DNA from: an uncultured Thermococci archaeon
GTDB lineage: Archaea > CAYQAE01 > CAYVLA01
Assembly (NCBI GenBank): GCA_964549615.1
Contig: CAZJVP010000018.1
Coordinates: 13,802 to 77,801, forward strand
Length of the DNA stretch: 64,000 bases
Direction of reading: 5' to 3'
Every line of letters begins with the position of its first letter. The stretch's first letter is position 1. Of the stretch, positions 4,979 through 39,230 are shown piece by piece. Under the pieces are notes generated by a model, which saw only the letters and a program-made list of their open reading frames with translations, was not told the DNA's origin and did not search any database. The position numbers were made by a program, and so were the translations under genes.

Positions 4979-5393
4979 GTTGGACGACGAGATCGAGGCA
5001 ATAAGGGAAAAGAAAAGGCGGGAGATGATCGAGCGTCTTTCGGGCAAGGCGAACGAGGGACGGTCCGAACTGCCCGGCGGTGTGCTCGAGATGGACGACG
5101 CGTCGATCGACGCTGCCATCCAGTCCTACCCGTCTCTTGTGGTGGACTGCTGGGCAGCTTGGTGCGGTCCGTGCCGGGCAATGGCCCCGGTGATAGAGCA
5201 GCTCGCAAAGAAGCACAAGGGTAAGATCGTCTTCGGAAAGATCAATGTGGACCGGAACCCGGGCACGGCCGCCCGGTTTCAGGTCATGAGCATTCCTGCC
5301 TTCCTGGTGTTCAGGCGGGGCGAGCACGTCGACACGATCATCGGTGCGATGCCGGCCGAACGGCTCGAGCAGAGGCTGGCGAAGTACTTCTAG
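4971..5393 (+). CDS. trxA: Thioredoxin
   Basis: WAAWCGPCR active site and MSIPA cis-Pro loop. Start GTG 4971 or TTG 4980 (uncertain). Confidence 0.93.
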   Translation: MSRLDDEIEAIREKKRREMIERLSGKANEGRSELPGGVLEMDDASIDAAIQSYPSLVVDCWAAWCGPCRAMAPVIEQLAKKHKGKIVFGKINVDRNPGTAARFQVMSIPAFLVFRRGEHVDTIIGAMPAERLEQRLAKYF

Positions 5394-6162
5394 GGATCGG
5401 TTCCCTACGACCACATGCATCCCGTTTGAAGAGTCCGAACTCCGTCTCCTTGAGCTCCTTCCAGAAGAACACAGGGCCATCCCTGCAAACGGTGAAGCAA
5501 CCAAGCGCGCAGCTGCCGCAAAGGCCGATGCCGCACTTGAAGTACCTCTCGACGAGAAGTTGGCATTCGACCCCGGCGGTTTCGGCCATCATGCCGGCAG
5601 TCGCCATCATTGCCTCGGGCCCGCAGGCGAAGATGCAGTCGAATGCGGAAAGCGGAGGAAGGTGATCGGTGACGTTTCCGGCCATCCCAAGGCTGCCGTC
5701 GACCGTGCAGATCTGCGTCTTGCCCAATCGCCCGAACTCCTGGGCGTATATCGCATCGACGGCACTATTGAAGCCCAGAAAGATGGTTGGACTCGTTTTT
5801 CTGTGAGCCAGCTCCGAAGCTAGATGGAGAATTGGCGATGCGCCGATCCCGCCGCCTACCAGGATCGGCCTCTCATAGGCGAGGTCGAAGGCGCGCCCGT
5901 AGGGCCCCCTGATGCCGAGCAGGTCGCCCGGCTTGCAGCGGGCAAGCGCCCGGGTGAAGGGACCCACCTGCTTGACGGTCATGAGAAGCTCTTTCCTCGA
6001 GATCCTGGTCACGGCCATCGGCTTCTCGTCAGCGCCGTTCCACACCATGATGAACTGGCCGGGTCGTGGCAGCTTCTCGAGAGGGTTCTCGATCCTGACG
6101 CAGGCTATGTTCCGAGCGATCTCCTTGGCCTCCATCACGCGAGCTGGCTTGGGCCTCTCCAT
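5338..6162 (-). CDS. pyrK: Dihydroorotate dehydrogenase electron-transfer subunit
   Basis: PGQFIMVW, IRGPYG, GGGIG, CGPEAM, [2Fe-2S] motif CGIGLCGSC...VCRDGPVF; abuts pyrD. Confidence 0.95.
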   Translation of the reverse strand: MERPKPARVMEAKEIARNIACVRIENPLEKLPRPGQFIMVWNGADEKPMAVTRISRKELLMTVKQVGPFTRALARCKPGDLLGIRGPYGRAFDLAYERPILVGGGIGASPILHLASELAHRKTSPTIFLGFNSAVDAIYAQEFGRLGKTQICTVDGSLGMAGNVTDHLPPLSAFDCIFACGPEAMMATAGMMAETAGVECQLLVERYFKCGIGLCGSCALGCFTVCRDGPVFFWKELKETEFGLFKRDACGRREPIPRSTSPASARAVRPASHR

Positions 6163-9980: not shown

Positions 9981-10817
9981 ATGGTTCATGTAGTCATCAT
10001 GAAGTGCGGCAACATCGCAACGTCCACCATGGTCGACCTTCTCCTGGACGAGATAGCCGCAAGAGATGATCTTCAAGTGACCGTGGTCGGTTCCGGCCCA
10101 AAGATGACTCCCGCCGAAACTACGCGGATAGCTGGGTACATCCCATCCACAAACCCCGACATCCTCGTGGTGTGCGGTCCAAATGCTGCCTCGCCGGGCA
10201 TGACGAGGCTTCGGGAGGCGCTCGCCGATGTCAAAGCGCCGAAGATAGTGATAGGAGATGGCCCTAGCAAGAAGGTGAAGGACAAGCTGGAACAGGAGGG
10301 TTTTGGATATCTGATAATGGAGGCGGATCCTCTCATCGGGGCAAGGCGCGAGTTCCTAGATCCGACCGAAATGGCGATCTTCAACGCGGATGTGATTAGG
10401 GTCTTGGCCACGGTGGGCAGCTTGAGAACCGTGCAGGAGGAACTGGACAAGGCCATACAGTCAGTGAAGAATGGAAAGGTGTATCTTCCCCGGTTGGTGG
10501 TATCCGAGTCCCGTTCCCTGGCAAAGGCCGGTTTTTCCAATCCCTATGCGAGGGCAAAGGCAGCGGTTGCCTTCCGACTTGCCGATCTTGCAGCCCAGGT
10601 CAACTATAACGCCTGCTTCGTCGAGAAGGACGTCAAGAAGTACATCAGGCTCGCGGCGGCAGCACATGAAGCAGTGAGGACGGCTGCCCAATTGGCGGAC
10701 GAGGCCCGCGAGATCGAGAAGGCATCGGACAAGGTCCTGAGAACCCCCCACTCTAGGAAGGGCAGGATTCTTCGGAAAAGGGCTTTGCTGGCCAAACCCC
10801 AGGAGGCGGTCCAGTGA
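9981..10817 (+). CDS. mtd: F420-dependent methylene-H4MPT dehydrogenase
   Basis: KCGNIATS..VDLLLDE, VVGSGPKM, ADPLIGARREFLDPTEMAIFNAD, FSNPYARAKA, VLRTPH. Confidence 0.95.
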   Translation: MVHVVIMKCGNIATSTMVDLLLDEIAARDDLQVTVVGSGPKMTPAETTRIAGYIPSTNPDILVVCGPNAASPGMTRLREALADVKAPKIVIGDGPSKKVKDKLEQEGFGYLIMEADPLIGARREFLDPTEMAIFNADVIRVLATVGSLRTVQEELDKAIQSVKNGKVYLPRLVVSESRSLAKAGFSNPYARAKAAVAFRLADLAAQVNYNACFVEKDVKKYIRLAAAAHEAVRTAAQLADEAREIEKASDKVLRTPHSRKGRILRKRALLAKPQEAVQ

Positions 10818-11716
10818 ACGGGGAAACAGTTGAGGACACGTTTGCGGAAGCCTTTCGGTCGTACTACTCCCGCGTGTTGATCACCGGCTCAACATCCGAG
10901 CTGGCTAGGACCGCCGCGGTCACCTCAACAGGATTCGCCACGTCGGCACTAGGATGCGGCGTTGAGGCTGGTATCGAGACTGAGCTTCCGGAGAAACAAG
11001 CGCCGGATGGCAGGCCCGGCATCATCTGCCAGTACCACATCTGGAGCAGGGACCCCAAGAAGATGTATGGAGTCCTGCTCGCTAGGATCGGGCACTGCGT
11101 TCTGACCGCCCCGAGTACCGCGGTTTTTGATGCTACGGCAAACCCCTTGGCCAAGATCGATCTGGGTGTGAAGCTCGGGTTCTTCGGCGATGGCTACGAG
11201 GAAGAAGGAGAGATCGGGGGCAGAAAGGTCATCATCATACCCATCATGGGGGGAGAGTTCAAGATCGAGAGAGAGGTGGGAATGAGCAAGGGCATCTCAG
11301 GGGGAAACCTGTGGTTCATGGGGTCCTCCCAGTCTGCTGCAATCGAGGCGGCACGGTCAGCCACAGCGGCAATAAGCGGAGTAAAGGGCGTCATCACCCC
11401 CTTCCCGGGCGGGGTCTGCAGCTCCGGATCCAAGGTGGGAGCCGAGAGGTACAAGTTCCTAGCCAACTCAACCAATCATCCCTATTGCCCAACGCTGAGG
11501 GGCAAGATCCGGGATTCCAAGGTTCCGAAGGGCGTGGAGTCCATTATGGAAGTAGTCATCAACGGAACCAGCCTCAAGTCTGTCCAAAGAGCAATGAAGG
11601 TGGGCATCGATGCAGCCCTTGGGACGAAGGGGCTCATCAGGATCTCCGCAGGGAACTTCGGCGGAAAACTTGGGCGGTTCAAGATCCATTTAAGAGACTT
11701 GCAGGATGCGCCGTGA
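10814..11716 (+). CDS. ftr: Formylmethanofuran:H4MPT formyltransferase
   Basis: VEDTFAEAF, TGFATS..GCGVEAG, PDGRPG, FFGDGYE, SGSKVG, ISAGNFGGKLG. Confidence 0.96.
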   Translation: MNGETVEDTFAEAFRSYYSRVLITGSTSELARTAAVTSTGFATSALGCGVEAGIETELPEKQAPDGRPGIICQYHIWSRDPKKMYGVLLARIGHCVLTAPSTAVFDATANPLAKIDLGVKLGFFGDGYEEEGEIGGRKVIIIPIMGGEFKIEREVGMSKGISGGNLWFMGSSQSAAIEAARSATAAISGVKGVITPFPGGVCSSGSKVGAERYKFLANSTNHPYCPTLRGKIRDSKVPKGVESIMEVVINGTSLKSVQRAMKVGIDAALGTKGLIRISAGNFGGKLGRFKIHLRDLQDAP

Positions 11717-11752: not shown

Positions 11753-13201
11753 ATGCAGCACAGGCAAGAGCTCGAGAAGGTCCTCGATATCGACAAACTG
11801 AAGTACTGCTACGAATGCGGCATCTGCACATCCAGCTGCCCGGTCGCAGAGTTGATGCCAAGAGTGTACAATCCACGAAGCCTGCTCCAACAGATCCCAC
11901 TCGATTTCCAGCAGGCCACGAAGAGCAAGGAGATCTGGCTTTGCGCATGGTGCTACCGGTGCTACAGGAGGTGTCCGCAAGGGCTTAGAGTTCCGGATAT
12001 TCTCTTGCTGCTCAAGGACACTGCAGCCCAGAGCGGATCCCTTGAAGGATTCAAAGAGGCATTGGAGGTGATCCTCAGAGAGGTCCCTTTGCCCTTGGCC
12101 TGCCTATACGCTTGCTTCAACCCTGCGCGAGGCAACGTGGAGAAGCCGGGGACAATCGAGGCCGTGAGGCACCTGGTGGCCAACTACCGGCACCTGACAA
12201 GAGGGGAGAAAGCCGACATCGCCAGCCCCCGAAAGGAGAGGATAGCCATAGTGGGATCGGGTCCGGCCGGCCTGACCGCCGCCCAGGAGCTCGCGAAGAA
12301 GGGATACTTGGTCACCGTGTTCGAATCGATGCCCAGACCTGGCGGCATGTTGGGTTGGTGCATACCGGCATATAGGTTGCCAAGAGAGGCCGTCGAGGCT
12401 GAGATCCAACGGATAAGGGACCTCGGGGTCGACTTCCGAACCAATGTGACGGTCGGCAAAGACCTGTCCATCGACGACATCTTGAAGGAAGGCTACGATG
12501 CCTTGTTCATCGCCATAGGAGCCCAGAAGGTGAGAAAGCTCGGCATTGAGGGCGAGAACCTCCGCGGGGTCCTTGATGCCCTTGACTTCCTGAGGAAGGC
12601 AGGCACAGGAGAGAAGATCGAACTCGGAAACAAGGTTGCGGTGGTTGGTGGCGGAGATGTGGCGATGGATGCAGCCAGGATCGCTAGGGTTGCCCTCCAT
12701 CTTGGAGCAAAGGATGTCACGATACTGTACAGGAGGTCGAGAGACGAGATGCCGGCAAACCCCTGGGAGGTCAAGGAAACCGAGGATGAGGGCGTCAGGA
12801 TCGAGTTCCTGGTTGCGCCCAAGAGGATCCTGGGCAAGGATGGACGCGTTGCGGCCTTGGAGTGCGTTCGCATGAAGCTGGGAAGGCCCGACCAAACCGG
12901 CAGGAGAAGGCCAATACCGATCCAAGGATCTGAGTTCATGATGGAGGTCGACAGCGTGATACCGGCGATAGGCGAAAGCCCAAGCCTCTTTCCGCTCCCA
13001 AAGGGGGTCAGGATCACGAAAAGAAACACCATCGCGGCCGATCCTTTCACCCTCCAGACCGGCGTTCCTGGAATATTTGCCGGAGGCGATGTTGTACGCG
13101 GGCCGTCGACGGTGATCGAGGCCGTGGTGGACGGAAAGAGGGCCGCAGAATCGATTCACCGATACCTGCTAGACAGATCCAAGACGGGCCAAGGTGGTTG
13201 A
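11753..13201 (+). CDS. Fusion: HdrC-like 2x[4Fe-4S] domain + GltD/NfnB-like FAD/NAD(P)H oxidoreductase
   Basis: CYECGICTSSCP and IWLCAWCYRCYRRCPQG (HdrC-type); then IVGSGPAGL, GGML..IPAYRLP, VVGGGDVAMDAAR, YRRS..EMPA, FAGGDVVRGP. Confidence 0.88.
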   Translation: MQHRQELEKVLDIDKLKYCYECGICTSSCPVAELMPRVYNPRSLLQQIPLDFQQATKSKEIWLCAWCYRCYRRCPQGLRVPDILLLLKDTAAQSGSLEGFKEALEVILREVPLPLACLYACFNPARGNVEKPGTIEAVRHLVANYRHLTRGEKADIASPRKERIAIVGSGPAGLTAAQELAKKGYLVTVFESMPRPGGMLGWCIPAYRLPREAVEAEIQRIRDLGVDFRTNVTVGKDLSIDDILKEGYDALFIAIGAQKVRKLGIEGENLRGVLDALDFLRKAGTGEKIELGNKVAVVGGGDVAMDAARIARVALHLGAKDVTILYRRSRDEMPANPWEVKETEDEGVRIEFLVAPKRILGKDGRVAALECVRMKLGRPDQTGRRRPIPIQGSEFMMEVDSVIPAIGESPSLFPLPKGVRITKRNTIAADPFTLQTGVPGIFAGGDVVRGPSTVIEAVVDGKRAAESIHRYLLDRSKTGQGG

Positions 13202-15653
13202 GATGCCGGAAGCGGAAGCCATCGGAAAGACGATCACGGAAACCGCCCTGCCTGTCCGAGACGATGAGATTAGAGTAGGCGTCTATGTCTGCCATTGTGG
13301 ACTGAATATCGCGGGCTCCGTTGACTGCGAGGAAGTGGCAAGATTCGCCGGGGGCCTTCCGGATGTCGTCGTTTCAAGGAGTAGCCGTTACACCTGCTCG
13401 GACCAGGGACAGGAACTGATCAAGAGCGACATCAAGGAACACAAGCTGAACCGCGTTGTGGTTGCGTCCTGCACACCTCGTCTCCACGAACCCACCTTCA
13501 GAAAGGCGTGTGAGGAAGCCGGATTGAACAAGTATCTCTTTGAGATGGCAAACATCAGAGAGCACTGCAGCTGGATACATCTCTACGAGAAGGAAAAGGC
13601 CACTGAGAAGGCCAAGGACCTTGTCAGGATGGCCGTGGCCAAGGCCCGATTTCTGCAACCACAGGTTGAGCTTGAAGTCCCGGTCACAAGGCGGACACTC
13701 GTTGTGGGCGGGGGAGTCGCAGGCATCCAGGCGGCCCTAGATCTCGCAGATGCTGGTTACCAGGTGTACCTCGTGGAGAAGAACCCGAGCATCGGCGGCA
13801 GGATGGCGCAGATAGACAAGACCTTCCCGACCATGGACTGTTCCATCTGCATCCTCGCGCCCAAGATGTCGGAAGCGGGAAGGCATCCAAACATCGAGTT
13901 GATGACGAATAGCGAGGTCATTGAGGTAAGTGGTTACATCGGCAATTTCAAGGTAAAGGTATTGAAGAAGCCAAGATACGTGGTGAAATGTAACAGCTGT
14001 GGTGAGTGCGCCAACGTATGTCCCGTCCAGGTCCCAAACGAGTTCGACGCAAACTTCGCCCCAAGAAAGGCCATCTACATCCCCTTTGCACAAGCGGTCC
14101 CGTCCACGTACATAGTGGACATGGATCACTGCATAAGGTGTTACGAGTGCATCAAGGCCTGCAAGGTCGCCGGTGCGGGGGCCATCGACTTCAATCAGAA
14201 GCCCGAAGTGGAGGAACGTGAGGTCGGCACGATCATCGTGGCAACGGGCGCGGATGTGTACGATCCCAGTTCGCTCACCGAGTATGGGTACGGGAGATAC
14301 GCAAACGTGATAACGTCGCTTGAGTTCGAACGCCTGATAAATGCCGGGGGCCCATCGGGCGGCCGGCTGATCCGGCCCAGCGATGGCAAGATCCCGGAGT
14401 CGGTGGCCTTCATCCAGTGTATTGGTTCGCGATCGGACAGGAGTGGTCACCTGTACTGTAGCAACGTCTGCTGTATGAACACGATCAAGGATGCCTTGCT
14501 CATAAAGGAGCACTGGCCGGAAACGAAGATCTACGTCTTCTATCTCGACATAAGGGCCTTCGGCAAAGGGTTCGAGGACCTGTTCAAGAGGGCAAAGAAG
14601 GAGGGCGTCATTTTCATCCGCGGCCTGCCGGCCGAGATCTACGAGAACGGAAGGAAGAACCTGATTCTCACCGGCGAGAACACTTTGAGGGGGGAGATCT
14701 ATAACATCGAGGTCGGACTAGTAACACTTTCGGTCGGGCTTAGGCCCGGACAGGACGCGGATATCGTCCAACGGCTCTTCAACCTATCCAGGACCCCGGA
14801 TGGCTTCTTCATGGAGGCGCATCCGAAGCTTCGTCCAGTGGATGCTCCAACGGGAGGCATATTCTTCGCGGGGTGCGCGGAATCCCCAAAGGACATCAAG
14901 GACTCCGTGACCCAAGCCAGCGCGGCGGCGGCGAGGGCAAACATCCTCATGGCTAAGGGAAGCGTGACGGTCGAAGCAATAACGCCCACTCTGATTCGGG
15001 AGAACTGCAAGGCCTGTGGGCTTTGCGCCAAAGTCTGCCCCTACAACGCCATTCGCGTCGACAAGGAGACGAAAACGACGGAGGTGATCGACGCGGCCTG
15101 CGCGGGATGCGGAACCTGCGGCGCAGAGTGCCCCTCGGGTGCGTTGGTCATGCGCCATTTCACGGACCAACAGATCATGGCCCAGATCGACGCAGCGACG
15201 GAAGATGACGCTGGAAAGAAGGTCATTGCCTTCTGCTGCAACTGGTGCTCATATGCAGCAGCGGATTTTGCTGGAGTCAGCAGGATGCAGCAACCCACTC
15301 TTGCCCGCGTGATCCGGACCATGTGCTCGGGAAGGGTGACAAGCAAGTTCATCGAACGGGCTTTTTCTAGAGGCGCAGGTGCTGTCCTGGTTTCCGGTTG
15401 CCACCCGGGTGACTGTCACTACATCAATGCCAACTACCAGACCCAGAAGCGAGTCGAGAGATTCTGGAAGACGATGGAAAAGAAAGGATTGGATAGGAGG
15501 CGGCTCCAGCTAGCCTGGTTCAGCGCTGCGGAGGGCGAGGCCTTTGCAAGGAAAATCAAGGAAATGCAGGAGATCGTGGAGAGCCTGACTCCCGACGAGA
15601 TCGAGAGATCGAAGGCGGTCTGGAAGACGGCTGTCGAGGCTGAGTCATCTTGA
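13194..15653 (+). CDS. hdrA: Heterodisulfide reductase subunit A fused to a C-terminal MvhD domain
   Basis: VYVCHCGLNI, VASCTPRLHE, NIREHCSW, GGGVAG, DKTFPTMDC, IQCIGSR, CSNVCC, two ferredoxin domains; MvhD motifs FCCNWCSY, MCSGRV, GCHPGDCHY. Confidence 0.95.
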   Translation: MVEMPEAEAIGKTITETALPVRDDEIRVGVYVCHCGLNIAGSVDCEEVARFAGGLPDVVVSRSSRYTCSDQGQELIKSDIKEHKLNRVVVASCTPRLHEPTFRKACEEAGLNKYLFEMANIREHCSWIHLYEKEKATEKAKDLVRMAVAKARFLQPQVELEVPVTRRTLVVGGGVAGIQAALDLADAGYQVYLVEKNPSIGGRMAQIDKTFPTMDCSICILAPKMSEAGRHPNIELMTNSEVIEVSGYIGNFKVKVLKKPRYVVKCNSCGECANVCPVQVPNEFDANFAPRKAIYIPFAQAVPSTYIVDMDHCIRCYECIKACKVAGAGAIDFNQKPEVEEREVGTIIVATGADVYDPSSLTEYGYGRYANVITSLEFERLINAGGPSGGRLIRPSDGKIPESVAFIQCIGSRSDRSGHLYCSNVCCMNTIKDALLIKEHWPETKIYVFYLDIRAFGKGFEDLFKRAKKEGVIFIRGLPAEIYENGRKNLILTGENTLRGEIYNIEVGLVTLSVGLRPGQDADIVQRLFNLSRTPDGFFMEAHPKLRPVDAPTGGIFFAGCAESPKDIKDSVTQASAAAARANILMAKGSVTVEAITPTLIRENCKACGLCAKVCPYNAIRVDKETKTTEVIDAACAGCGTCGAECPSGALVMRHFTDQQIMAQIDAATEDDAGKKVIAFCCNWCSYAAADFAGVSRMQQPTLARVIRTMCSGRVTSKFIERAFSRGAGAVLVSGCHPGDCHYINANYQTQKRVERFWKTMEKKGLDRRRLQLAWFSAAEGEAFARKIKEMQEIVESLTPDEIERSKAVWKTAVEAESS

Positions 15654-17410
15654 AGTGCATCCTGAACACCGGCAGGACATTGGAACAGGGCGTGGCATTG
15701 GAGGCTGGCAAGACATCGCAGCAGTACTATGAGGCTACCGCTCTGGCCTACGTCAACGATGACGACATGGAGGATCTGGGGTTGGAAGAGAATATGCCAA
15801 TGGAGATCTCCACGGAGTCTGGGTCGGTTGTCGTAAGATGCAGGAAGGGCTGGATAGACCGGGGCCAGATCTTCATGCCCTGGGGCCCCTGGGCCAACGC
15901 GATCGTGGGTTCCGACACATCGGGGACTGGCATGCCAAGATATAAGGGCGTTGAGGTGGAGGTCAGCCCAACCAACAAGCCGATTACAACGCTCCACGAT
16001 CTCTTCGTTGAGAAGGACAGGATGGTCAGAGCCGTCAGCGAGATTCCGAGATACTCCCCAAGCGCAACTACCCAGCTCGAGTCCAAGGGGCAGGGCGAGA
16101 GTGTTCAAACCACAATCAGCAACGTGGTCTGTCCTTTCTGTGGCTGCCTGTGTGATGATGTGGAGATCGTGACTGAGAGGGGAAGAATAGTAGATGCGGT
16201 AGTGGGTTGTGAGCTTTCCAAGAGCAGGTTCCTGAATTGGGACAAAGATCGAGTCAAACCGGCGATCAGGAAGGATGGGAAACTTGTCGAAGTGACCCTT
16301 GACAAGGCTATAGAAAAGGCGGCCGAGATTCTCAGAAAGGCCGACTACCCTCTGATCTACGGCCTGAGTTCAACGGAAGTGGACGCTCAGAGGGCAGCCA
16401 TCAACCTTGCTGAGATGATCGGTGCAACAATCGATAACACAACCTCGGTATGCCACGGTCCAACCACGCTTGCTGCCCAAGATTGCGGTGTGCCGGAGAT
16501 GACATTGGGGGAAGTGAGAAACAGAGCCGACTTAGTCATCTACTGGGGATGCAATCCCGCGGAGGCACACATCCGACACGTAACGCGGTACGCCACGACT
16601 CCGAAGGGCATGTTCATCAAAGGCGGAAGAAAAGACCGATTCGTGATCCACGTGGACGTTAGGGAAACGAAGACCGCGAAGGCTGACCCCAGGTGGCACT
16701 TCGTCTACCAACTCGCCAACATGTTCGTGAAAGTTAGACCCGGCCAGGACTACGAGCTGTTCTCGGCCCTAAGGGCCAGGTTAAGGGGACATGAGGTGGG
16801 TGAAGTTGCCGGGGTGCCCGCAAGCACTATCGACGACCTCGTCAACCGAATGAAGACGTGCAAGTTCGGAGTCATATTCTTTGGTCTGGGTCTCACAATG
16901 TCGAGCGGCCGGCACATGAACATCGATGCAGTCCTGCGACTGGTCAGAGACCTGAATGACCACACCAAGTTCACGATCCTCCCGATGAGGGGCCACCACA
17001 ACGTAGCGGGGATCAACCATGTGATGCTGTGGACCACGGGATACCCCTATGCCGTCAACTTCTCGCGAGGCTATCCCATCTACAACCCGGGCGAGTTCTC
17101 GGCCGTGGACGTGCTTGCCCGAGGGGAATGCGATGCAGCCTTGATAGTCGCATCCGACCCGGTCGCTCACTTCCCGGTCCAGGCCGTCAAGCATCTTGCT
17201 GGAATCCCAACGATCGTAGTCGACCCGAAGATGAGCATGACCTCGCTGATGGCCGAGGTTCTGATCCCATCCGCGATAGCAGGAATCGAGTGCGACGGAA
17301 CCGCCTATCGAATGGATGGCGTGCCCATCAGGCTCAGGAAGGTCGTCGATTCAGCATTCGAGCCAGACAAGCTGATCTTGGATAGGATCATCGAGAGGGT
17401 CCGGAGTTGA
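15650..17410 (+). CDS. fwdB: Formylmethanofuran dehydrogenase subunit D-B fusion (Mo/W-pterin)
   Basis: FwdD part LNTGRTLEQG...MPWGPWAN...TGMPRYKG; FwdB part CPFCGCLCDD, SVCHGP, EVRNRAD, WGCNP, PMRGHHNV, AYRMDGVP. Confidence 0.93.
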   Translation: MKCILNTGRTLEQGVALEAGKTSQQYYEATALAYVNDDDMEDLGLEENMPMEISTESGSVVVRCRKGWIDRGQIFMPWGPWANAIVGSDTSGTGMPRYKGVEVEVSPTNKPITTLHDLFVEKDRMVRAVSEIPRYSPSATTQLESKGQGESVQTTISNVVCPFCGCLCDDVEIVTERGRIVDAVVGCELSKSRFLNWDKDRVKPAIRKDGKLVEVTLDKAIEKAAEILRKADYPLIYGLSSTEVDAQRAAINLAEMIGATIDNTTSVCHGPTTLAAQDCGVPEMTLGEVRNRADLVIYWGCNPAEAHIRHVTRYATTPKGMFIKGGRKDRFVIHVDVRETKTAKADPRWHFVYQLANMFVKVRPGQDYELFSALRARLRGHEVGEVAGVPASTIDDLVNRMKTCKFGVIFFGLGLTMSSGRHMNIDAVLRLVRDLNDHTKFTILPMRGHHNVAGINHVMLWTTGYPYAVNFSRGYPIYNPGEFSAVDVLARGECDAALIVASDPVAHFPVQAVKHLAGIPTIVVDPKMSMTSLMAEVLIPSAIAGIECDGTAYRMDGVPIRLRKVVDSAFEPDKLILDRIIERVRS

Positions 17411-19035
17411 GTGTCGTCACAAGCAGTCTTGTCATAAGGAACGGCACCGTCTACGACCCGGCCAATGGGATAGACGGGGAGAAGATGGACCTGTTCATCG
17501 AGAACGGAAAGATGGTCGAGGAAACCAGAGGCAGGGAGATAGACGCATCAGGATTGGTTGTGTTCCCCGGGGGGATCGATATCCATTCCCACATCGCAGG
17601 GTCCAAGGTCAACCTCGGCAGGCTGTTCAGGCCGGAGGACCACAGGAAGGACCATGTCAGCAGGACCCACCTTACAAGAAGCGGCGTGGGATACTCGGTT
17701 CCGACGACCTTTGTGACCGGTTACAGATATGCCAAGCTCGGCTACACAACTATCATGGAGGCTGCAAGCCCTCCCCTGATGACGAGGCATACTCACGAGG
17801 AACTGAATGACACCCCCATCGTCGACAAAGCGTGCTACACTCTCATGGGAAACAATCACTTCGTCATGGACTACATCAAGAAGGGAGAGATGGAGAAACT
17901 CCGAGATTACGTGGCTTGGCTCCTGAACGCCACGAAGGGATATGCGGTGAAGATAGTCAACCCCGGCGGCGTGGAGAACTGGAAGTGGGGCAGAAATGTG
18001 GAAAGCATAGATGACAAGGTCGACAACTATGAGGTCACCCCCAGAGAGATACTGGTTGGCCTCTCTAGGGTCAACGACGACCTTGGTCTGCCGCATGCGA
18101 TACACGTTCACGCCAACAATCTGGGTTCGCCCGGCAATTACGAGACCACCCTGCAGACCATGGACGCTGTGAAAGGCAGAATGCATCTGACCCATCTGCA
18201 GTTCCACTCGTACGCGGGAGACAGCTGGGCCAAATTCAGCTCCGGCGTCGACGAGGTGGTCAAATCAGTGGATAAACACGACAACATCACATGCGATATG
18301 GGCCAGGTGATCTTCGGCGACACTACCACGATGACGGCCGACGGCCCGTGGCAACACCGCCTCTATGGGCTGACGGGCAACAAGTGGTTCAATGCTGATG
18401 TAGAAATGGAGACCGGAGCGGGGGTCGTTCCCTACTACTTCACCAGGAAGAGTCCCGTTAACTCGGTTCAGTGGGCAATAGGTCTGGAGATTGCCCTCAT
18501 GGTCAAAGATCCTTGGAAGGTCTGCCTCACGACCGACCATCCCAACGGGGGACCCTTCTATATGTACCCAAAGGTCATCTCGTGGCTCATGAGCAAGAAG
18601 GCGCGGGACCAAACCCTAGGATCGATCCACAAGGCCGCCTCCGCTAGAACTGCCCTGCCCAGCCTCGATAGGGAGTACTCCCTCTACGACATCGCCATCG
18701 TCACGAGGGCAGCGCAGGCCCGGGCCCTGGGGCTGAAGAACAAGGGGCATTTGGGGGTTGGAGCCGACGCCGACGTGGCGATCTATGAGTTCGCCGAGGA
18801 CCACGTACAGCGCTCCTTCTCGAAAACGCGGTACACAATCAAGGAGGGAAGGGTCGTCGCTGTGAACGGAGAGATCGTCGACTCGTTTCAAGGAAGAACC
18901 TTTTGGGCTGATGCTCAGGGCGGGGTGACCGATGAGGTCAGGGAAGCATTTGCGAAATACTACACGGTCTCGTTTGAGAATTATCCCGTTCAGGACGATT
19001 ATCTACCCAGAGCCGAGGCCGTTCCATGTGGCTAG
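17407..19035 (+). CDS. fwdA: Formylmethanofuran dehydrogenase subunit A
   Basis: VYDPANG, DIHSHIAG, KIVNPGG, HVHANNLG, TADGP, TTDHPNGGP, GHLGVGADAD. Confidence 0.97.
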   Translation: MSVVTSSLVIRNGTVYDPANGIDGEKMDLFIENGKMVEETRGREIDASGLVVFPGGIDIHSHIAGSKVNLGRLFRPEDHRKDHVSRTHLTRSGVGYSVPTTFVTGYRYAKLGYTTIMEAASPPLMTRHTHEELNDTPIVDKACYTLMGNNHFVMDYIKKGEMEKLRDYVAWLLNATKGYAVKIVNPGGVENWKWGRNVESIDDKVDNYEVTPREILVGLSRVNDDLGLPHAIHVHANNLGSPGNYETTLQTMDAVKGRMHLTHLQFHSYAGDSWAKFSSGVDEVVKSVDKHDNITCDMGQVIFGDTTTMTADGPWQHRLYGLTGNKWFNADVEMETGAGVVPYYFTRKSPVNSVQWAIGLEIALMVKDPWKVCLTTDHPNGGPFYMYPKVISWLMSKKARDQTLGSIHKAASARTALPSLDREYSLYDIAIVTRAAQARALGLKNKGHLGVGADADVAIYEFAEDHVQRSFSKTRYTIKEGRVVAVNGEIVDSFQGRTFWADAQGGVTDEVREAFAKYYTVSFENYPVQDDYLPRAEAVPCG

Positions 19036-19102: not shown

Positions 19103-19915
19103 GTGATCAGGCTTAGACCGAGACAGGAATCGAGAATCCCAGTGGAGGCGGAATGCATATCGCCCGACGCCTTCTCGGGGAAGTCGGCAGCGCAAGTGGA
19201 GGATATGAAGATCCTATGGGGCAACAAGACGAAGAGGTTGGTCGATCTCTTCGAGGTCGTTGAGGATCCGGCAGAGCCTAACGAGATAGTGGTGGACGGG
19301 GACGTGAGATTCGTCAAGCATATCGGCGCCAAGATGAGCATGGGAAGGGTGATCGTGAACGGCGATGCGGGCATGCACCTCGGCCGGGGGATGGCGGGGG
19401 GCGAGATAATCGTAAACGGAGATGCTGGGGACTGGCTGGGAACGGAGATGGTCGGCGGGCTTATCAGAGTTAAGGGAAACGTGGGAAACTTGGCTGGGTC
19501 TGCCTACCGGGGCTCCAAGTCCGGCATGAAGGGTGGGATGATCGTCATCGAGGGGGGTGCAGGCGATGAGCTGGGCGAGTTGATGGAGGGTGGAACGATA
19601 GCCGTGAAAGGCAACGTGCAATCATTTGCGGGGGCGCTGATGTCGGGCGGGGCGATCGTTTGCTTCGGGGGTCTGGGCGGGAGACCGGGCGCTGGGATGA
19701 CCAACGGAACCCTACTTGCCTTCAGCCAGCCAAGGCTTCTTCCGACGTTCAGATACGCGCGAACGTACAAACCGACTTTCATCAAGCCTATCCTTGAGGA
19801 GCTTAGGAAGCAAGGCCTCCCAGTGGAAGACCGGCAGATAGAAGGCTTGTACGACGCGTACGAGGGAGATCTTGCATGCGACGGGAAGGGGAAGATCCTC
19901 GTTTGGAAAGACTAG
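19103..19915 (+). CDS. fwdC: Formylmethanofuran dehydrogenase subunit C
   Basis: PVEAECISPD, WGNK, repeated GxxMxGGxIxVxG beta-helix, AYRGSKSGMKGG, LLPTF, GDL..GKG. Confidence 0.96.
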   Translation: MIRLRPRQESRIPVEAECISPDAFSGKSAAQVEDMKILWGNKTKRLVDLFEVVEDPAEPNEIVVDGDVRFVKHIGAKMSMGRVIVNGDAGMHLGRGMAGGEIIVNGDAGDWLGTEMVGGLIRVKGNVGNLAGSAYRGSKSGMKGGMIVIEGGAGDELGELMEGGTIAVKGNVQSFAGALMSGGAIVCFGGLGGRPGAGMTNGTLLAFSQPRLLPTFRYARTYKPTFIKPILEELRKQGLPVEDRQIEGLYDAYEGDLACDGKGKILVWKD

Positions 19916-19966: not shown

Positions 19967-20863
19967 CTATGGATAGCGAACGTCGACCGTCAGCCCATCC
20001 CGCCCAATGATCGTCCTGGGGAAGTCGACTTCCTTGGCTATGGTCTCCTCGTCATATCTAGGTGAAAAATGGGTCAACAGGAGTCTCTTGGCTCCCGCCT
20101 TTCTCGCAAGCTGGCATGAAAGCTTGACAGTGGAGTGCCCGGTCTCCACGGCGCGGTCGGCGAGGTCATCGCAGAAGGTTGCCTCGCATATCAGAAGATC
20201 GGCGCCCCTGGACAGTCGGATTGCCAACTCCGTCGGGAGGACGTCTCCAAGGTAGACGATCTTCCGACCCTGCCGCGGCGGCCCAACCACCTCGCTAGGG
20301 CTGATTGTCCTGCCCCTCCAATGAATGGCCTTCCCCATCTGCAGATCCTTGTAAAGCCTGCCTTGGGGTATGCCGAGGGCTCGCGCCTTCTCCAAGTAGA
20401 ACCTCCCCGGCCTTTGGTCCTCCTGAAGGAGGTAGCCCAGCGTCGGCACGAGGTGTTCGACCGCCCCACAATAGACAGCATAGCCGTCGAATCTCACAAT
20501 GGCTCCAGATTCAAGCTCATGTCCCACGATCCTGAAACTAGATTGGAAATTGCCAATGGAGTTCAAGAGATGCGAAATCTTCTCCATTCCCGGGGGGCCG
20601 TAGATGTCAAGGGGATGGTCTCTTCCGAAGAAGGACATGCTTTGAACCAATCCGAACAGCCCAAGATAGTGATCTCCGTGGAAGTGCGTCACAAATATCT
20701 TGGAAACCCTCATGAAGCTGAGGCCAAACCTTATCATCTGTCGCTGGGTGCCTTCCCCGCAGTCGAAGAGTATTATTTCCCTCTGCCTTCGGACCGCCAC
20801 AGCTGGCAAGCCGCGCTCCGGCGTCGGAACGCCGCAGGAAGTCCCCAGCAATGTTACCTTCAT
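19967..20863 (-). CDS. rnz: Ribonuclease Z
   Basis: LGTS.GVPT, FDCGEGTQRQ, THFHGDH, exosite arm, CEATF, GHST, HFSPRY. Confidence 0.95.
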   Translation of the reverse strand: MKVTLLGTSCGVPTPERGLPAVAVRRQREIILFDCGEGTQRQMIRFGLSFMRVSKIFVTHFHGDHYLGLFGLVQSMSFFGRDHPLDIYGPPGMEKISHLLNSIGNFQSSFRIVGHELESGAIVRFDGYAVYCGAVEHLVPTLGYLLQEDQRPGRFYLEKARALGIPQGRLYKDLQMGKAIHWRGRTISPSEVVGPPRQGRKIVYLGDVLPTELAIRLSRGADLLICEATFCDDLADRAVETGHSTVKLSCQLARKAGAKRLLLTHFSPRYDEETIAKEVDFPRTIIGRDGLTVDVRYP

Positions 20864-25027: not shown

Positions 25028-25089
25028 CTCAGATCGAGTCTACTAAGATATAAAGCCCAAAGGTGTTTAGGGATGCAGCCGGCGTCTGG

Positions 25090-25920
25090 ATGGATCTGCT
25101 CTTCGTCTACTCAGGAAACTACGGCGAGAGGGTCATCGGGAACCTCATGAACTATCACAGGTTCTGCACCGTCTGCGATCCCGCTTGCAGCAGCTGCAGG
25201 TTTGGCCAGTTCAACTGGTCCTCCGAGATAAGACAGGCCCTTATCGTGCCTGGGCCCAGTGATGCCCTGCCGCCGCAGGAAGGGTCCTCCCTGGCAATCA
25301 ATGCGCCAGAGGCCGAGGTGGCATTTCTAATCGACGTGCATCCAGAGGTCATGTTGGATTTTGTTGAATCCCTTCGGGGCACCCGGGTAAGGGCGGTCAT
25401 CGTGCCGATTGAAAGACCCGGGATCGGGGCCGGGCTCCTGAGGCAGGTCCGTTCCATCCTTGACGAGCTCAAGGTGGAGCTGGCCTGTCCAAAACCCTTC
25501 TGTTCCCTCACTCCGCACGATTCCTCGCCAACGATCAACGCCTTCATCGAGAAGTTCAGAATCGGAAGGCCGCTCATTGAAGTCGAGACTGAAACCGCAG
25601 CATCCGGCGAGCATACAATCTCCAAGGCACGTGTCCTAAGGAGTTCACCTTGTGGTGCGACCTGGTACATCTGCCGTAAGCTTGTGGGAACCCGGGTTGA
25701 GGCAGAGGCAGTTGCGGAGGTGGTTGCGCGCGCTCACCACACCTACCCCTGCACAGCCTCCATGGTCATGGACCGGGAGACCGGAGACACATTCCTTCAC
25801 GCGGGCGGGCGCATCGCCCGGGAGAGCGTGTTTGAGGCGCTGCGCCGTAACCTCGCGCAGAGGGGCAGGTATGCGGAGGCACAGCGCATGGCGGACTCGG
25901 CCTTGAAGAAGACGCCCTAA
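25090..25920 (+). CDS. DUF166-family protein with an extra CxxCxxxCxxC insertion
   Basis: GNYGERVIGNL, CPKPFCSL, RSSPCGATWY, HHTYPCTASM. TATA-like GATATAAAG at 25047-25055 supports ATG 25090. Confidence 0.75.
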   Translation: MDLLFVYSGNYGERVIGNLMNYHRFCTVCDPACSSCRFGQFNWSSEIRQALIVPGPSDALPPQEGSSLAINAPEAEVAFLIDVHPEVMLDFVESLRGTRVRAVIVPIERPGIGAGLLRQVRSILDELKVELACPKPFCSLTPHDSSPTINAFIEKFRIGRPLIEVETETAASGEHTISKARVLRSSPCGATWYICRKLVGTRVEAEAVAEVVARAHHTYPCTASMVMDRETGDTFLHAGGRIARESVFEALRRNLAQRGRYAEAQRMADSALKKTP

Positions 25921-26623: not shown

Positions 26624-26655
26624 TGGATCTCGTCCAGATGATGGCGCTAAGCAGT

Positions 26656-38702: not shown

Positions 38703-39230
38703 TTAGCTACGGCGCCCGCCTTCCAGTCTGCGAAACGCCTGCGCAAGGCCCGCAACGAGCGAATCCGCGCCTTCACGGACCATGGGCGATAATGGCTCCC
38801 CGAATCCGCAGCTCTGGATCTGCACGCCCAGGAGGAAGGTGTCGACACGGGCCCCCTTCTGCCTTGAGACGATCCTGCAGAAGAGCGAGAGGGGCAGCCT
38901 GTGCGTGGAAACGGCGTGCCCCCAGATGTCATCCTCCTCAGCTTGGACCAATGTACCCGGATTCAGCCCCGCCTGAGCGGCATCGACGAGGATGACGTGG
39001 GACGGATCGTGGGAAACCACCTCGGACAGGTAGTTCTCCGGAACCTCCCCGCAGGGAATCACCGCTACGAAGCTGGGCATTTCCAGCGCGAGGAGACGCT
39101 GGGCGACGTAGAGTCCAACGCCATCATCGCCGCGAAGCTCGTTTCCCACCCCGCAGACCACGACCCTGGTCGCATCGGCCAGCCTTCTGGACACCGCCGC
39201 GACTAGGCCTGTCCTTTCCAGGACTCGCAC
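38703..39230 (-). CDS. [NiFe]-hydrogenase maturation protease (HycI-like)
   Basis: GVGNELRGDDGVG, GEVPEN, LVDAA, STHRLPL, LGVQ..FGEPLS. Confidence 0.9.
   Translation of the reverse strand: MRVLERTGLVAAVSRRLADATRVVVCGVGNELRGDDGVGLYVAQRLLALEMPSFVAVIPCGEVPENYLSEVVSHDPSHVILVDAAQAGLNPGTLVQAEEDDIWGHAVSTHRLPLSLFCRIVSRQKGARVDTFLLGVQIQSCGFGEPLSPMVREGADSLVAGLAQAFRRLEGGRRS

What the first reader, a model, noticed from the sequence alone, without database searches (positions are those of the whole stretch)
11753..13201. HdrC-GltD/NfnB chimeric protein with a visible fusion seam
Seen: residues ~1-90 are HdrC-like (CxxCxxCxxxCP; IWLCxxCxxCxxRCPQG). The next stretch, GFKEALEVILREVPLPLACLYACFNP, resembles a degenerate GltD/NfnB NPLPxxCGRVCxxPCE cluster motif with two Cys kept. 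An intact FAD domain and a GGGDVAMD...YRRS site follow. Known: YRR after the second Rossmann fold is typical of NADP(H)-using GltD/NfnB. HdrL proteins insert a similar domain in HdrA rather than HdrC. Inference: an NADP(H)-specific replacement for HdrB.
Basis: partly seen in the sequence, partly recalled or inferred. Interest (0 to 1): 0.78.

Follow-up and report, generated by a model that had tools for sequence, protein, structure and literature searches.

The report
HdrC–NfnB fusion beside HdrA2
An archaeal gene joins the iron-sulfur domain of heterodisulfide reductase subunit C to an NADPH-type flavoprotein, and probably lets the neighbouring HdrA2 enzyme trade electrons with NADP(H) instead of with a heterodisulfide.

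Summary
ORF 11753-13201 (+) encodes 482 aa. Residues 1-~98 are an HdrC-type domain with two CxxCxxCxxxCP motifs (profile match E 1.3e-34). Residues ~99-482 are a GltD/NfnB-type FAD and NAD(P)H module (profile match E 2.1e-30). The module's own cluster motif has decayed: a 5-residue deletion removed CExxC, and only C121 is invariant.

The two matches overlap at residues 70-113, and the seam lies near residues 95-100.

The fusion is not a one-off. At least 120 clusters, mostly from Bathyarchaeia, share it at full length, under generic names. Eight literature searches found no description of it.

The gene sits in an apparent operon, mtd-ftr-[fusion]-hdrA2-fwdDB-fwdA-fwdC, and is translationally coupled to HdrA2. 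The 64 kb window shows no HdrB signature.

Twenty of the 120 family clusters share a contig length with an HdrA2 cluster. The N-domain docks on HdrA2 in silico (0.67 against 0.00 for controls), though this may reflect solved HdrA-HdrC complexes.

Best reading: the fusion replaces HdrBC as an NADP(H)-linked arm of HdrA2, giving a heterodisulfide-free bifurcating or confurcating complex that serves the archaeal Wood-Ljungdahl methyl branch. The function, the third substrate and the cofactor specificity are inferred, not shown. I rate it a new variant of a known kind.

The parts
9981..10817 (+). mtd, F420-dependent methylene-H4MPT dehydrogenase; first gene of the apparent operon
   Evidence: Pfam MTD hit at E 2.3e-112. 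Its stop overlaps the ftr start by 4 nt.
10814..11716 (+). ftr, formylmethanofuran:H4MPT formyltransferase
   Evidence: Pfam FTR and FTR_C hits. A 36-nt gap separates it from the fusion gene.
11753..13201 (+). HdrC-GltD/NfnB fusion gene (P0001, 482 aa); GAGG lies 9 nt upstream of the ATG
   Evidence: Full-length homologues at 54-74% identity.
11753..12046 (+). HdrC-type alpha-helical ferredoxin domain, residues 1-98. It should bind two [4Fe-4S] clusters through motif A (C19, C22, C25, C29; nt 11807-11842) and motif B (C64, C67, C70, C74; nt 11942-11977).
   Evidence: HdrC TIGR03290 hit at E 2.5e-19, residues 17-101. PDB HdrC chains at E 1.7e-18. hhalign E 1.3e-34. All 8 Cys are invariant in 38 of 38 members.
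12047..12232 (+). Remnant of the GltD/NfnB N-module, residues 99-160. It keeps the helix GFKEALEVI, the PLP turn and C121, then the linker helix to the FAD domain. The CExxC part of the cluster motif is deleted and the K/E/Q ligand position is not conserved.
   Evidence: hhalign against the short GltD module at E 2.1e-30, showing an 8-residue insertion and a 5-residue deletion. Alignment to 9bov_A starts at residue 99. C121 is invariant and C117 variable.
12233..13177 (+). FAD and NAD(P)H-binding Rossmann domains, residues 161-475. The FAD site is GSGPAG (nt 12254-12271). The NAD(P)H site is GGGDVAMD (nt 12647-12670) with YRRS (nt 12728-12739).
   Evidence: Pyr_redox_2 hit at E 2.5e-34. PDB NfnABC, NfnB and StnC chains at E 1e-97 to 1e-80. 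Foldseek E 4.9e-41 to 5jca_L. AF2 model mean pLDDT 88.5.
13194..15653 (+). hdrA2 (HdrA-MvhD fusion). The likely start is the ATG at 13203, 1 nt after the fusion gene's stop, with a GGTGG Shine-Dalgarno inside the fusion gene's last codons.
   Evidence: NCBIfam NF040770 HdrA2 scores 1244.9 bits against a cut-off of 1100. FlpD/MvhD domain at residues 677-798. Sequence at the junction read. The database form is 816 aa.
15650..17410 (+). fwdD-fwdB fusion, formylmethanofuran dehydrogenase
   Evidence: TIGR03129 FwdB at E 1.6e-170 over residues 158-584, and FwdD NF042908 over residues 1-120. It overlaps hdrA2 by 4 nt.
17407..19035 (+). fwdA
   Evidence: TIGR03121 at E 1.1e-241. It overlaps fwdDB by 4 nt.
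19103..19915 (+). fwdC, last gene of the same-strand run
   Evidence: TIGR03122 at E 1.3e-80. The next ORF, 19967-20863, is on the - strand.

Best explanation
P0001 is a natural fusion protein. An HdrC-type domain with two [4Fe-4S] clusters (residues 1-~98) has been joined to a GltD/NfnB-type FAD and NAD(P)H module (residues ~99-482). The module's own cluster-binding motif then decayed.

The gene lies directly upstream of hdrA2 (an HdrA-MvhD fusion) and is translationally coupled to it. This is the place where hdrC and hdrB normally lie, and the window shows no HdrB.

Most likely mechanism:
1. The HdrC-like domain docks on HdrA2 as HdrC does.
2. Its two clusters connect HdrA2's bifurcating FAD to the fusion's own FAD.
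3. That FAD exchanges a hydride with NADP(H).

NADP(H) would therefore take the place of the CoM-S-S-CoB/HdrB arm. The result would be a heterodisulfide-free flavin-based bifurcating or confurcating enzyme linking NADP(H), low-potential ferredoxin (or Fwd directly) and a mid-potential carrier.

I take F420 as the most likely third partner, because the characterised HdrA2 interacts with F420 and ferredoxin. The reaction would then be Nfn-like and reversible: Fd(red) + NADPH + 2 F420 <-> Fd(ox) + NADP+ + 2 F420H2. It would balance the reductants needed by the Fwd, Ftr and Mtd steps encoded in the same operon.

Shown here: the domain anatomy, the homologies, the operon layout and the family's spread. 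Inferred: complex formation, NADPH specificity, the third substrate and the direction of the reaction.
For: Anatomy. The HdrC-like profile match is E 1.3e-34. The PDB HdrC match is E 1.7e-18 over residues 12-97. The GltD module match is E 2.1e-30. NfnB-like structures match at E 1e-97 to 1e-80, and Foldseek gives 4.9e-41.

Three cluster-motif segments are present (A, B and a decayed GltD motif), where a dicluster domain needs only two. That is the mark of a fusion followed by decay.

The HdrC match ends at HdrC residues 110-117 of 184, so the part of HdrC beyond the ferredoxin domain is absent.

Context. The operon is mtd-ftr-P0001-hdrA2-fwdDB-fwdA-fwdC, with 1-4 nt junctions from P0001 through fwdA. 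HdrA2 scores above the curated cut-off. No CCG-domain or NiFe large-subunit signature was found in the 64 kb window.

Conserved linkage (indirect). Twenty of the 120 listed family clusters have exactly the same longest-contig length as one of the 120 listed HdrA2 clusters. Among the 34 with contigs of at least 10 kb, 16 match.

Docking. ipSAE was 0.67, 0.66 and 0.68 in three runs, against 0.00 for the best of 3 controls. This mark was reached by 116 of 157 solved complexes and 2 of 215 mismatched pairs. The runs agree in at least 94% of contacts and the partner pLDDT is at least 68. My own alignments were used, so these counts hold only roughly.

NADPH. GGGDVA fits GxGxxA, and ILYRRSRDEMPA aligns with IVYRRTEREMPA of T. 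maritima NfnB. YRRS is kept in 36 of 38 members. The GxGxxG versus GxGxxA rule is as stated in passages of PMC12054007.

F420. [quoted passage not shown]

An open question this would answer. [quoted passage not shown]
Against: No experiment bears on this.

The docking pass may only reflect likeness to solved HdrA-HdrC complexes such as 5odc, 7bkb and 8rvu. It used the N-domain alone, so a clash with the fusion's own FAD domains was not tested.

The geometry is unresolved. Collinearity with GltD suggests the cluster that includes C74 is the one next to the fusion's FAD. The docking places motif A and C74-P-Q-G at the HdrA2 interface. Both cannot be a simple linear chain.

Gene linkage in relatives rests only on equal contig lengths. 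One matched pair (2526 nt) is too short to hold both full genes.

The rest of the genome is unseen, so HdrB, HdrC, Mvh or Frh could lie elsewhere.

NADP+ (about -320 mV, recalled) is a far weaker high-potential acceptor than heterodisulfide (about -140 mV, recalled). Bifurcation from F420H2 (about -340 mV, recalled) to ferredoxin and NADP+ is therefore not favourable under standard conditions, and only the confurcating direction or an H2/formate donor works easily.

Two of the 38 aligned members have FCMES in place of YRRS.

The search for longer fused forms found none, which gives no Rosetta-stone support.
Confidence: 0.55

Rival explanations
1. Same complex with a different third partner. 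Electrons from H2 or formate enter through the MvhD domain of HdrA2, from an Mvh hydrogenase or Fdh encoded elsewhere. They are bifurcated to NADP+ through P0001 and to Fwd or ferredoxin. This would give H2-driven CO2 reduction to formyl-methanofuran without a heterodisulfide, as in the Fdh-Hdr-Fmd supercomplex but with NADP+ as the sink.
For: HdrA2 carries a fused MvhD domain. The fwdDB, fwdA and fwdC genes follow hdrA2 with 4-nt overlaps. A hydrogenase maturation protease (HycI) gene lies at 38703-39230. The best fold match of the N-domain is HdrC of the Fdh-Hdr-Fmd complex, 7bkb_C, at a weak E of 0.058. The thermodynamics are favourable: H2 at about -414 mV lies between NADP+ and ferredoxin (recalled values).
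Against: No NiFe large-subunit motif and no Mvh or Fdh gene is in the window. The operon has no FwdF/G polyferredoxin to bridge HdrA and Fwd. The characterised HdrA2 uses F420H2 and no hydrogenase (PMC5296606 abstract and passages).
Confidence: 0.2
2. P0001 works without HdrA2, as a self-contained NADPH:ferredoxin oxidoreductase or an Nfn-like enzyme whose own FAD does the chemistry. The HdrC-like domain would only supply ordinary all-Cys clusters for ferredoxin contact, and adjacency to hdrA2 would reflect shared regulation of Wood-Ljungdahl genes.
For: The whole model superposes on NfnB, GltD and DPD over 400-517 alignment columns (aln_cols, gaps included) with TM about 0.65-0.70. The arginine of the IPxYRLP motif (R208), discussed for NfnB bifurcation in PMC10482914, is invariant. 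GltD-like modules are used in many contexts.
Against: No NfnA or PyrK-like partner is in the operon; the only PyrK-like gene (5338-6162) sits next to pyrD. The Glu, Lys or Gln ligand position of the FAD-proximal cluster is not conserved, and the GltD motif is decayed. The tight coupling to hdrA2, the repeated co-location signal and the docking pass are unexplained by this view.
Confidence: 0.15
3. There was no fusion event. The complete two-motif N-domain is an ancestral state of the alpha-helical ferredoxin domain shared by HdrC and GltD, and ordinary GltD/NfnB lost it.
For: Residues 70-113 align with both families. The spacing from CxxxCP to GSGPAG (98 residues) is nearly that of GltD modules (95-97).
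Against: A decayed third motif (PLP...C121) follows an already complete dicluster domain. Residues 1-100 match HdrC at E 1e-18 but match no GltD, NfnB or DPD chain among the 60 rows shown of 123 at E<=10. In the quick tree the FAD half sits among short-module GltD domains and not at the base, though the backbone is poorly supported.
Confidence: 0.07

Closest known systems
HdrABC / HdrA2B2C2 heterodisulfide reductase (Methanothermococcus, Methanosarcina acetivorans)
   Same: The HdrA2 partner scores above the curated cut-off. The N-domain has the two HdrC motifs and about 34-45% identity to HdrC-like proteins. The gene lies beside hdrA.
   Different: No HdrB and no CCG domain is in the window. 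The HdrC part stops after the ferredoxin domain and continues into a flavoprotein. The predicted terminal substrate is NADP(H), not CoM-S-S-CoB.
HdrL / type III HdrA (HdrA with an inserted GltD/NfnB domain; ANME-1 HdrA9-11, Bathyarchaeota A10, Desulfobacteraceae)
   Same: It uses the same kind of short GltD module and the same idea of wiring NAD(P)H into an Hdr complex (passages of PMC12054007 and PMC9012536; loci L001-L012).
   Different: In HdrL the module is inserted in HdrA's ferredoxin domain, and hdrC and hdrB are kept (L001). The HdrL module still hits Fer4_20 at E 9.4e-20. Here the module is on a separate polypeptide fused to HdrC, on the opposite arm of HdrA; HdrB is absent and Fer4_20 is not detected.
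NfnAB (NfnB/NfnL, T. maritima 4ylf, P. furiosus 5jca)
   Same: The FAD and NADPH domains match, at 38-39% identity over the structural alignment. The YRR and GxGxxA motifs are shared.
   Different: There is no NfnA partner. The N-domain is HdrC-type with all-Cys motifs. The Glu-ligated proximal-cluster site is not conserved. The canonical clade is separate in the quick tree with SH-aLRT support of 100.
StnC (8oh5) and NfnABC large subunits (9bov, 9n5u)
   Same: These are the best sequence matches for residues ~100-474 (E 1e-97 to 6e-80). In StnC the GltD-like module is a non-bifurcating NADPH entry point feeding a separate bifurcating module (PMC10482914 abstract and passages). That is the role proposed here.
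   Different: Those modules are fused to NuoG- or FdhF-like domains and feed a HydBC-type module, not HdrA.
Fdh-Hdr-Fmd supercomplex of Methanospirillum hungatei (7bkb)
   Same: Hdr is coupled to formylmethanofuran dehydrogenase. 7bkb_C is the best fold match of the N-domain, at a weak E of 0.058. Here hdrA2 and the fwd genes sit in one operon.
   Different: That complex uses HdrB/heterodisulfide and an FmdF polyferredoxin. Neither is seen in this operon.

Membership tests
HdrC (CoB-CoM heterodisulfide reductase subunit C; TIGR03290, NF041779) | Two CxxCxxCxxxCP motifs in an alpha-helical ferredoxin domain | tested here: met
   C19/22/25/29 and C64/67/70/74 are invariant in 38 of 38 members. 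hhalign E 1.3e-34.
HdrC (CoB-CoM heterodisulfide reductase subunit C; TIGR03290, NF041779) | Whole-protein score above the curated cut-off, with a full-length profile match | tested here: not met
   TIGR03290 scores 69.7 bits against a cut-off of 160 and covers profile positions 2-86 of 144. NF041779 scores 49.6 bits against 350.
HdrC (CoB-CoM heterodisulfide reductase subunit C; TIGR03290, NF041779) | C-terminal part beyond the ferredoxin domain, and a partner HdrB (CCG domains) | tested here: not met
   PDB HdrC alignments end at chain residues 110-117 of 183-185. No CCG domain or CCG motif is in the window. The rest of the genome was not seen.
HdrC (CoB-CoM heterodisulfide reductase subunit C; TIGR03290, NF041779) | Binds HdrA | tested here: inconclusive
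   The gene is adjacent and coupled to hdrA2. In-silico docking scored 0.67 against 0.00 for the best of 3 controls; that mark was reached by 116 of 157 solved complexes and 2 of 215 mismatched pairs. The three runs agree in at least 94% of contacts and the partner pLDDT is at least 68. My own alignments were used, so those counts hold only roughly, and the pass may be from memory of solved HdrA-HdrC complexes.
GltD / NfnB (Fer4_20 + Pyr_redox_2; TIGR01316, TIGR01318) | FAD and NAD(P)H Rossmann domains of the GltD type | tested here: met
   Pyr_redox_2 hit at E 2.5e-34. PDB NfnB, GltD and DPD matches. Foldseek 4.9e-41.
GltD / NfnB (Fer4_20 + Pyr_redox_2; TIGR01316, TIGR01318) | Fer4_20 N-domain with the GltD cluster motifs (CxxxCP ... 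CxxxCx2-5CxxxC plus a Glu/Lys/Gln ligand) | tested here: not met
   No Fer4_20 hit at E<=0.01. CExxC is deleted, and only C121 and the PLP turn are kept. In the list, 7 of 120 relatives carry a precomputed Fer4_20 hit.
GltD / NfnB (Fer4_20 + Pyr_redox_2; TIGR01316, TIGR01318) | Score above the curated cut-off of a GltD/NfnB model | tested here: not met
   The best match, PRK12771, scores 362.7 bits against 516. TIGR01316 scores 319.7 against 471.75.
GltD / NfnB (Fer4_20 + Pyr_redox_2; TIGR01316, TIGR01318) | NADPH specificity | not testable with these tools
   The GxGxxA and YRR motifs align with NADPH-binding NfnB. This is motif-level evidence only.
HdrL / type III HdrA | GltD domain inserted inside the HdrA polypeptide | tested here: not met
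   HdrA2 here is 816-819 aa with no GltD-type domain. The GltD module is on the neighbouring polypeptide.
HdrA2B2C2-type complex | HdrA-MvhD fusion subunit | tested here: met
   NF040770 scores 1244.9 bits against a cut-off of 1100, and the FlpD domain lies at residues 677-798.
HdrA2B2C2-type complex | Separate HdrB2 and HdrC2 subunits | tested here: not met
   None is in the window. The rest of the genome was not seen.

The most novel reading that the evidence does not exclude
In non-methanogenic Bathyarchaeia the long-puzzling Hdr does not reduce any disulfide. HdrA2 together with the HdrC-GltD fusion would be a new class of electron-bifurcating transhydrogenase that interconverts ferredoxin, NADP(H) and F420 (or H2). 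Encoded with the fwd genes, it would supply the low-potential electrons and F420H2 for archaeal acetogenesis. That would answer both open questions: which heterodisulfide is used, and where the F420H2 comes from.
Probability: 0.3. Interest if true: 0.8.

Novelty: new variant of a known kind. Interest (0 to 1): 0.6.

Why it matters
HdrA-based electron bifurcation is the energy-coupling core of methanogens. HdrA genes are also common in archaea and bacteria that make no CoM-S-S-CoB, and what they reduce there is an open question. It is stated as such for Bathyarchaeia, Korarchaeia and Culexarchaeia in the passages read.

A conserved gene in which the HdrC wire ends in an NADPH flavoprotein instead of HdrB gives a concrete, testable answer. 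It also adds a third way of attaching a GltD/NfnB module to a bifurcating core, beside HdrL and Stn/NfnABC.

The protein is small and soluble and has one obvious partner, so expression, cofactor analysis and NADPH, F420 and ferredoxin assays are straightforward.

Tried and rejected
- **Scan of genome contigs.** I used the N-domain profile to read the neighbourhoods of relatives. Neighbourhood conservation could therefore only be approached through equal contig lengths.
- **Search for longer fused forms, residues 1-165.** It found none among 395 candidates. This is weak evidence.
- **Residues 95-163 alone against the PDB.** Only chance-level hits came back. The GltD remnant is visible only with profiles or inside full-length alignments.
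- **AF2 model of the N-domain alone (pLDDT 69).** Foldseek gave no match at E<=0.001. The best was HdrC 7bkb_C at 0.058, followed by SdhB chains. This is consistent with the reading but inconclusive.
- **Tree of the FAD half.** The careful search did not finish and only the quick tree was used. Its backbone is poorly supported: 20 of 49 inner branches are open. The family needs 3 changes to be explained, and some long-branched NuoG-GltD rows nest inside it.
- **F420H2 bifurcation to NADP+ and ferredoxin as the forward reaction.** I considered and set this aside on recalled standard potentials. The confurcating direction, or an H2/formate donor, fits better.
- **Literature.** Eight searches found GltD inserted in HdrA but no HdrC-GltD fusion. 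Subscription papers (for example the first BA1 genome paper) and supplements were not seen.
Full report
**What is there**

The ORF at 11753-13201 (+) runs from ATG to TGA and encodes 482 aa, stored as P0001.
- motif A, C19-YE-C22-GI-C25-TSS-C29-P;
- motif B, IWL-C64-AW-C67-YR-C70-YRR-C74-PQG;
- the stretch GFKEALEVILREVPLPLACLYACFNP, residues 99-124;
- the FAD fingerprint GSGPAG, residues 168-173;
- GGGDVAMD, residues 299-306;
- YRRS, residues 326-329.

Pfam gives Fer4_8/Fer4_17 at residues 16-78 and Pyr_redox_2 at 163-460. It gives no Fer4_20, the usual GltD N-domain, at E<=0.01.

NCBIfam gives GltD-like models from residue 45-70 onward and HdrC TIGR03290 over residues 17-101 (E 2.5e-19). All of these are below their curated cut-offs.

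**Is it really a chimera?**

Three independent lines say yes.

1. *PDB sequence search.* Residues 1-100 alone hit five HdrC chains (E 1.7e-18 to 4.6e-12). No GltD, NfnB or DPD chain appears in the 60 rows shown of 123 matches at E<=10. The whole protein hits NfnABC, StnC, NfnB and GltD chains, with the best local alignments starting at residue 99-107.

2. *Search of 1.84 billion representatives with residues 1-105.* This returned 2197 proteins at E<=0.001. The top of the list holds a few 470-525 aa proteins with the same fused architecture. All five tested (P0125, P0132, P0133, P0176, P0193) have Pyr_redox_2 after the match. Below them come mainly 95-250 aa proteins. Of these, 14 of 14 tested match HdrC TIGR03290 at E 7.7e-17 to 8e-41, below cut-off, so they are HdrC-like.

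3. *Profile-profile comparison of the family N-domain (A2).*
   - Against HdrC-like proteins: probability 99.9%, E 1.3e-34, P0001 residues 8-113.
   - Against the short GltD module of HdrL- or Stn-type proteins: 99.8%, E 2.1e-30, residues 70-177.
   - Against canonical GltD N-termini: E 5.7e-21, residues 61-177.

The GltD alignment shows what happened at the seam. C70-xxx-C74-P and the next helix stand where the module has PCxxxCP plus a helix. An 8-residue HdrC-like insertion (TAAQSGSL) follows. From G99 the module continues, with GKFxEA, the PLP turn and VC. A 5-residue deletion has removed the CExxC of CxHPCExxC.

In 38 aligned family members all eight Cys of motifs A and B are invariant. 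C121 is invariant and C117 is not. The column that holds the Lys of LKRF or the Glu of LERF is not conserved in the family. In relatives that residue is the non-Cys ligand of the FAD-proximal cluster: Lys170 in StnC and a Glu in NfnB (PMC10482914 passages). My mapping of it to that column comes from the alignments.

The protein therefore has three cluster-motif segments where two suffice, and the third is decaying. That is the signature of a fusion, not of an ancestral state.

The seam is best placed at residues 95-100. Residues 70-113 are alignable to both parents, because both are alpha-helical ferredoxins that share the CxxxCP-helix element.

**Structure**

The full-length AF2 model is confident, with mean pLDDT 88.5 and pTM 0.89. 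It superposes on NfnI-L (5jca_L, E 4.9e-41, 454 columns), NfnABC (9bov_A, 9n5u_A), StnC, T. maritima NfnB, GltD and DPD.

The N-domain modelled alone is weaker, with pLDDT 69. Its best fold match is HdrC of the Fdh-Hdr-Fmd complex (7bkb_C, E 0.058), followed by SdhB iron-sulfur subunits. Nothing reaches E<=0.001. This is consistent but inconclusive.

**How common is it, and in whom?**

The 120 best clusters at 90% identity listed are 49-100% identical to P0001. Nearly all are full length. As far as I read the rows, they carry a Fer4_8-type hit, and 7 of 120 also carry a precomputed Fer4_20 hit.

The few source names given are generic:
- 'FAD-dependent oxidoreductase' from Candidatus Bathyarchaeaceae and Bathyarchaeota archaea;
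- 'Sulfide dehydrogenase subunit alpha precursor' from Bathyarchaeota archaeon BA1;
- 'NADPH-dependent glutamate synthase beta subunit-like oxidoreductase'.

The ESM Atlas places P0001 in a cluster of 69 members, 100% Archaea, most commonly Bathyarchaeota.

The window itself looks like a Bathyarchaeia-type archaeal acetogen. It carries Cdh/ACDS genes, Fwd, Ftr, Mtd, a Pta-Ack pair and two TFB genes.

**Context**

Seven same-strand genes form an apparent operon: mtd (9981), ftr (10814), P0001 (11753), hdrA2 (13194 or 13203), fwdD-B (15650), fwdA (17407) and fwdC (19103).

The junctions are tight. There are 4-nt overlaps at mtd/ftr, hdrA2/fwdDB and fwdDB/fwdA. A GGTGG ribosome-binding site for the ATG at 13203 lies inside the last codons of P0001.

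HdrA2 (HdrA fused to MvhD) scores 1244.9 bits against the curated cut-off of 1100 for NF040770. All of its cluster Cys are conserved in 30 relatives.

No CCG (HdrB/HdrD) domain and no NiFe large-subunit motif occurs in the window.

Comparing the two homologue lists gave indirect evidence instead. Twenty of the 120 P0001-family clusters have exactly the same longest-contig length as one of the 120 best HdrA2-family clusters, and 16 of the 34 with contigs of at least 10 kb do. Contigs of 4921, 5518 and 9817 nt can hold both genes only if they are near each other. One match, at 2526 nt, is too short for both full genes and may be a coincidence or a partial gene.

**Contrast with the known design**

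GltD/NfnB modules inserted into HdrA are in print. These are HdrL, type III HdrA and ANME-1 HdrA9-11 (passages of PMC12054007 and PMC9012536).

Locus L001, from a Bathyarchaeia MAG, is such a case. It encodes a 1125-aa HdrA with an inserted module that still hits Fer4_20 (E 9.4e-20). An HdrC-like gene and a CCG-domain HdrB gene follow it.

In the window the module is instead fused to HdrC, on the other arm of HdrA, and HdrB is gone.

In a quick tree of the FAD half (52 rows), canonical GltD/NfnB form their own clade with SH-aLRT support of 100. The family lies among short-module domains, with the Bathyarchaeia HdrL (L001) and a stand-alone short-module protein (L019) nearby. The backbone is weak, the family is not cleanly monophyletic, and the careful search did not finish.

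**Does it bind HdrA2?**

A co-fold of HdrA2 residues 20-680 with the N-domain scored 0.67, 0.66 and 0.68. The best of 3 controls scored 0.00. This mark was reached by 116 of 157 solved complexes and by 2 of 215 mismatched pairs. The runs agree in at least 94% of contacts, and the partner pLDDT is at least 68. My own alignments were used, so these counts hold only roughly.

The interface uses P0001 residues 15-43 (motif A) and 73-77 (C74-P-Q-G). On HdrA2 it uses residues 409-417, 477-481 and 493-502.

HdrA-HdrC complexes are solved, so the pass shows likeness rather than binding. The fusion's FAD domains were also left out.

One tension remains. Collinearity with GltD predicts that the cluster holding C74 is the one next to the fusion's own FAD. 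The docking puts that same cluster against HdrA2. I could not resolve the order of the clusters.

**Mechanism**

I commit to this reading. The fusion replaces HdrBC, and its two all-Cys clusters wire the bifurcating FAD of HdrA2 to a GltD-type FAD that exchanges hydride with NADP(H).

NADPH is suggested by GGGDVA, which fits GxGxxA, and by YRR aligned with NADPH-binding NfnB. Specificity is not shown.

The loss of the special Glu/Lys-ligated proximal cluster argues that the fusion's flavin is a plain entry or exit site, as in StnC (PMC10482914), and that bifurcation stays on HdrA2.

For the third partner I favour F420. The characterised HdrA2 interacts with F420 and ferredoxin (PMC5296606 passages), and the operon begins with the F420-dependent Mtd.

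Using recalled potentials (F420 about -340 mV, NADP about -320 mV, ferredoxin -420 to -500 mV), the easy direction is Fd(red) + NADPH reducing 2 F420. An H2 or formate donor acting through the MvhD domain, with Fwd as the direct low-potential acceptor, is the main rival.

Either version would explain why Hdr persists in Bathyarchaeia that make no heterodisulfide. The first would also explain where their F420H2 comes from. Both are stated as open questions in the preprint read.

**Novelty and limits**

Eight full-text searches found no description of an HdrC-GltD fusion. Subscription papers and supplements were not seen, so prior mention in a metabolic reconstruction cannot be excluded.

The finding is a new variant of a known kind, the modular flavin-based bifurcating complexes. 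It is widespread, generically annotated and easy to test.

All functional statements are inference. No genome outside this window was examined for HdrB, Mvh or Frh.

Noticed in passing
window 15650-17410 (+): FwdD and FwdB are fused in one 586-aa ORF. FwdD NF042908 covers residues 1-120 and FwdB TIGR03129 covers residues 158-584. The operon contains no FwdF/G polyferredoxin gene.
   Followed up: partly
window 34251-35462 (-): An FrhB-like F420-binding iron-sulfur flavoprotein gene (Fer4 plus FrhB_FdhB_N/C domains) overlaps the start of cdhA (31927-34254) by 4 nt, at the head of the cdh/ACDS gene run. This may link F420 to CO dehydrogenase/acetyl-CoA synthase.
   Followed up: no
window 60449-62649 (+): Phosphotransacetylase and acetate kinase genes lie side by side in an archaeon that also has the full Cdh complex and the methyl-branch genes. 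This fits an acetogenic Bathyarchaeia-type metabolism.
   Followed up: no
window 20957-23689 (-): A 910-aa ORF combines ADP-forming acyl-CoA synthetase domains (CoA_binding_2, Succ_CoA_lig, ATP-grasp_5) with a C-terminal GNAT acetyltransferase domain. This resembles Pat-type protein acetyltransferases.
   Followed up: no
window 25063-25920 (+) and 25931-26671 (-): Two convergent DUF166 paralogues lie directly beside the cdh gene cluster.
   Followed up: no
window 44904-45893 (-) and 46037-46984 (-): Two tandem TFIIB/TFB paralogues.
   Followed up: no
family alignment A1 (proteins P0058, P0087): Two of the 38 family members have FCMES where the others have YRRS, after the second Rossmann fold. 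They may have changed or lost NADPH binding.
   Followed up: no
proteins P0156 and P0242: The HdrC-like dicluster domain also occurs fused to signalling proteins. P0156 (445 aa) combines a response-regulator receiver, a GcvH domain and the HdrC-like domain. P0242 (650 aa) is a histidine kinase with the domain at its C-terminus.
   Followed up: no
loci L008, L013, L014, L051: Bacterial and Thermoplasmata proteins fuse a 2Fe-2S/ferredoxin N-terminus of the NuoG type to the same short GltD module. A CxxCxxCxxxCP motif lies about 25 residues upstream of the module's PCxxxCP. This layout recalls P0001.
   Followed up: partly
locus L019 642-3413 (+): A Bathyarchaeia contig carries a stand-alone 482-aa short-module GltD protein with a Fer4_20 hit and no HdrC motifs. 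It sits next to a thioredoxin-reductase-like flavoprotein gene and a malic enzyme gene. It is among the nearer relatives of the family's FAD half in the quick tree.
   Followed up: partly
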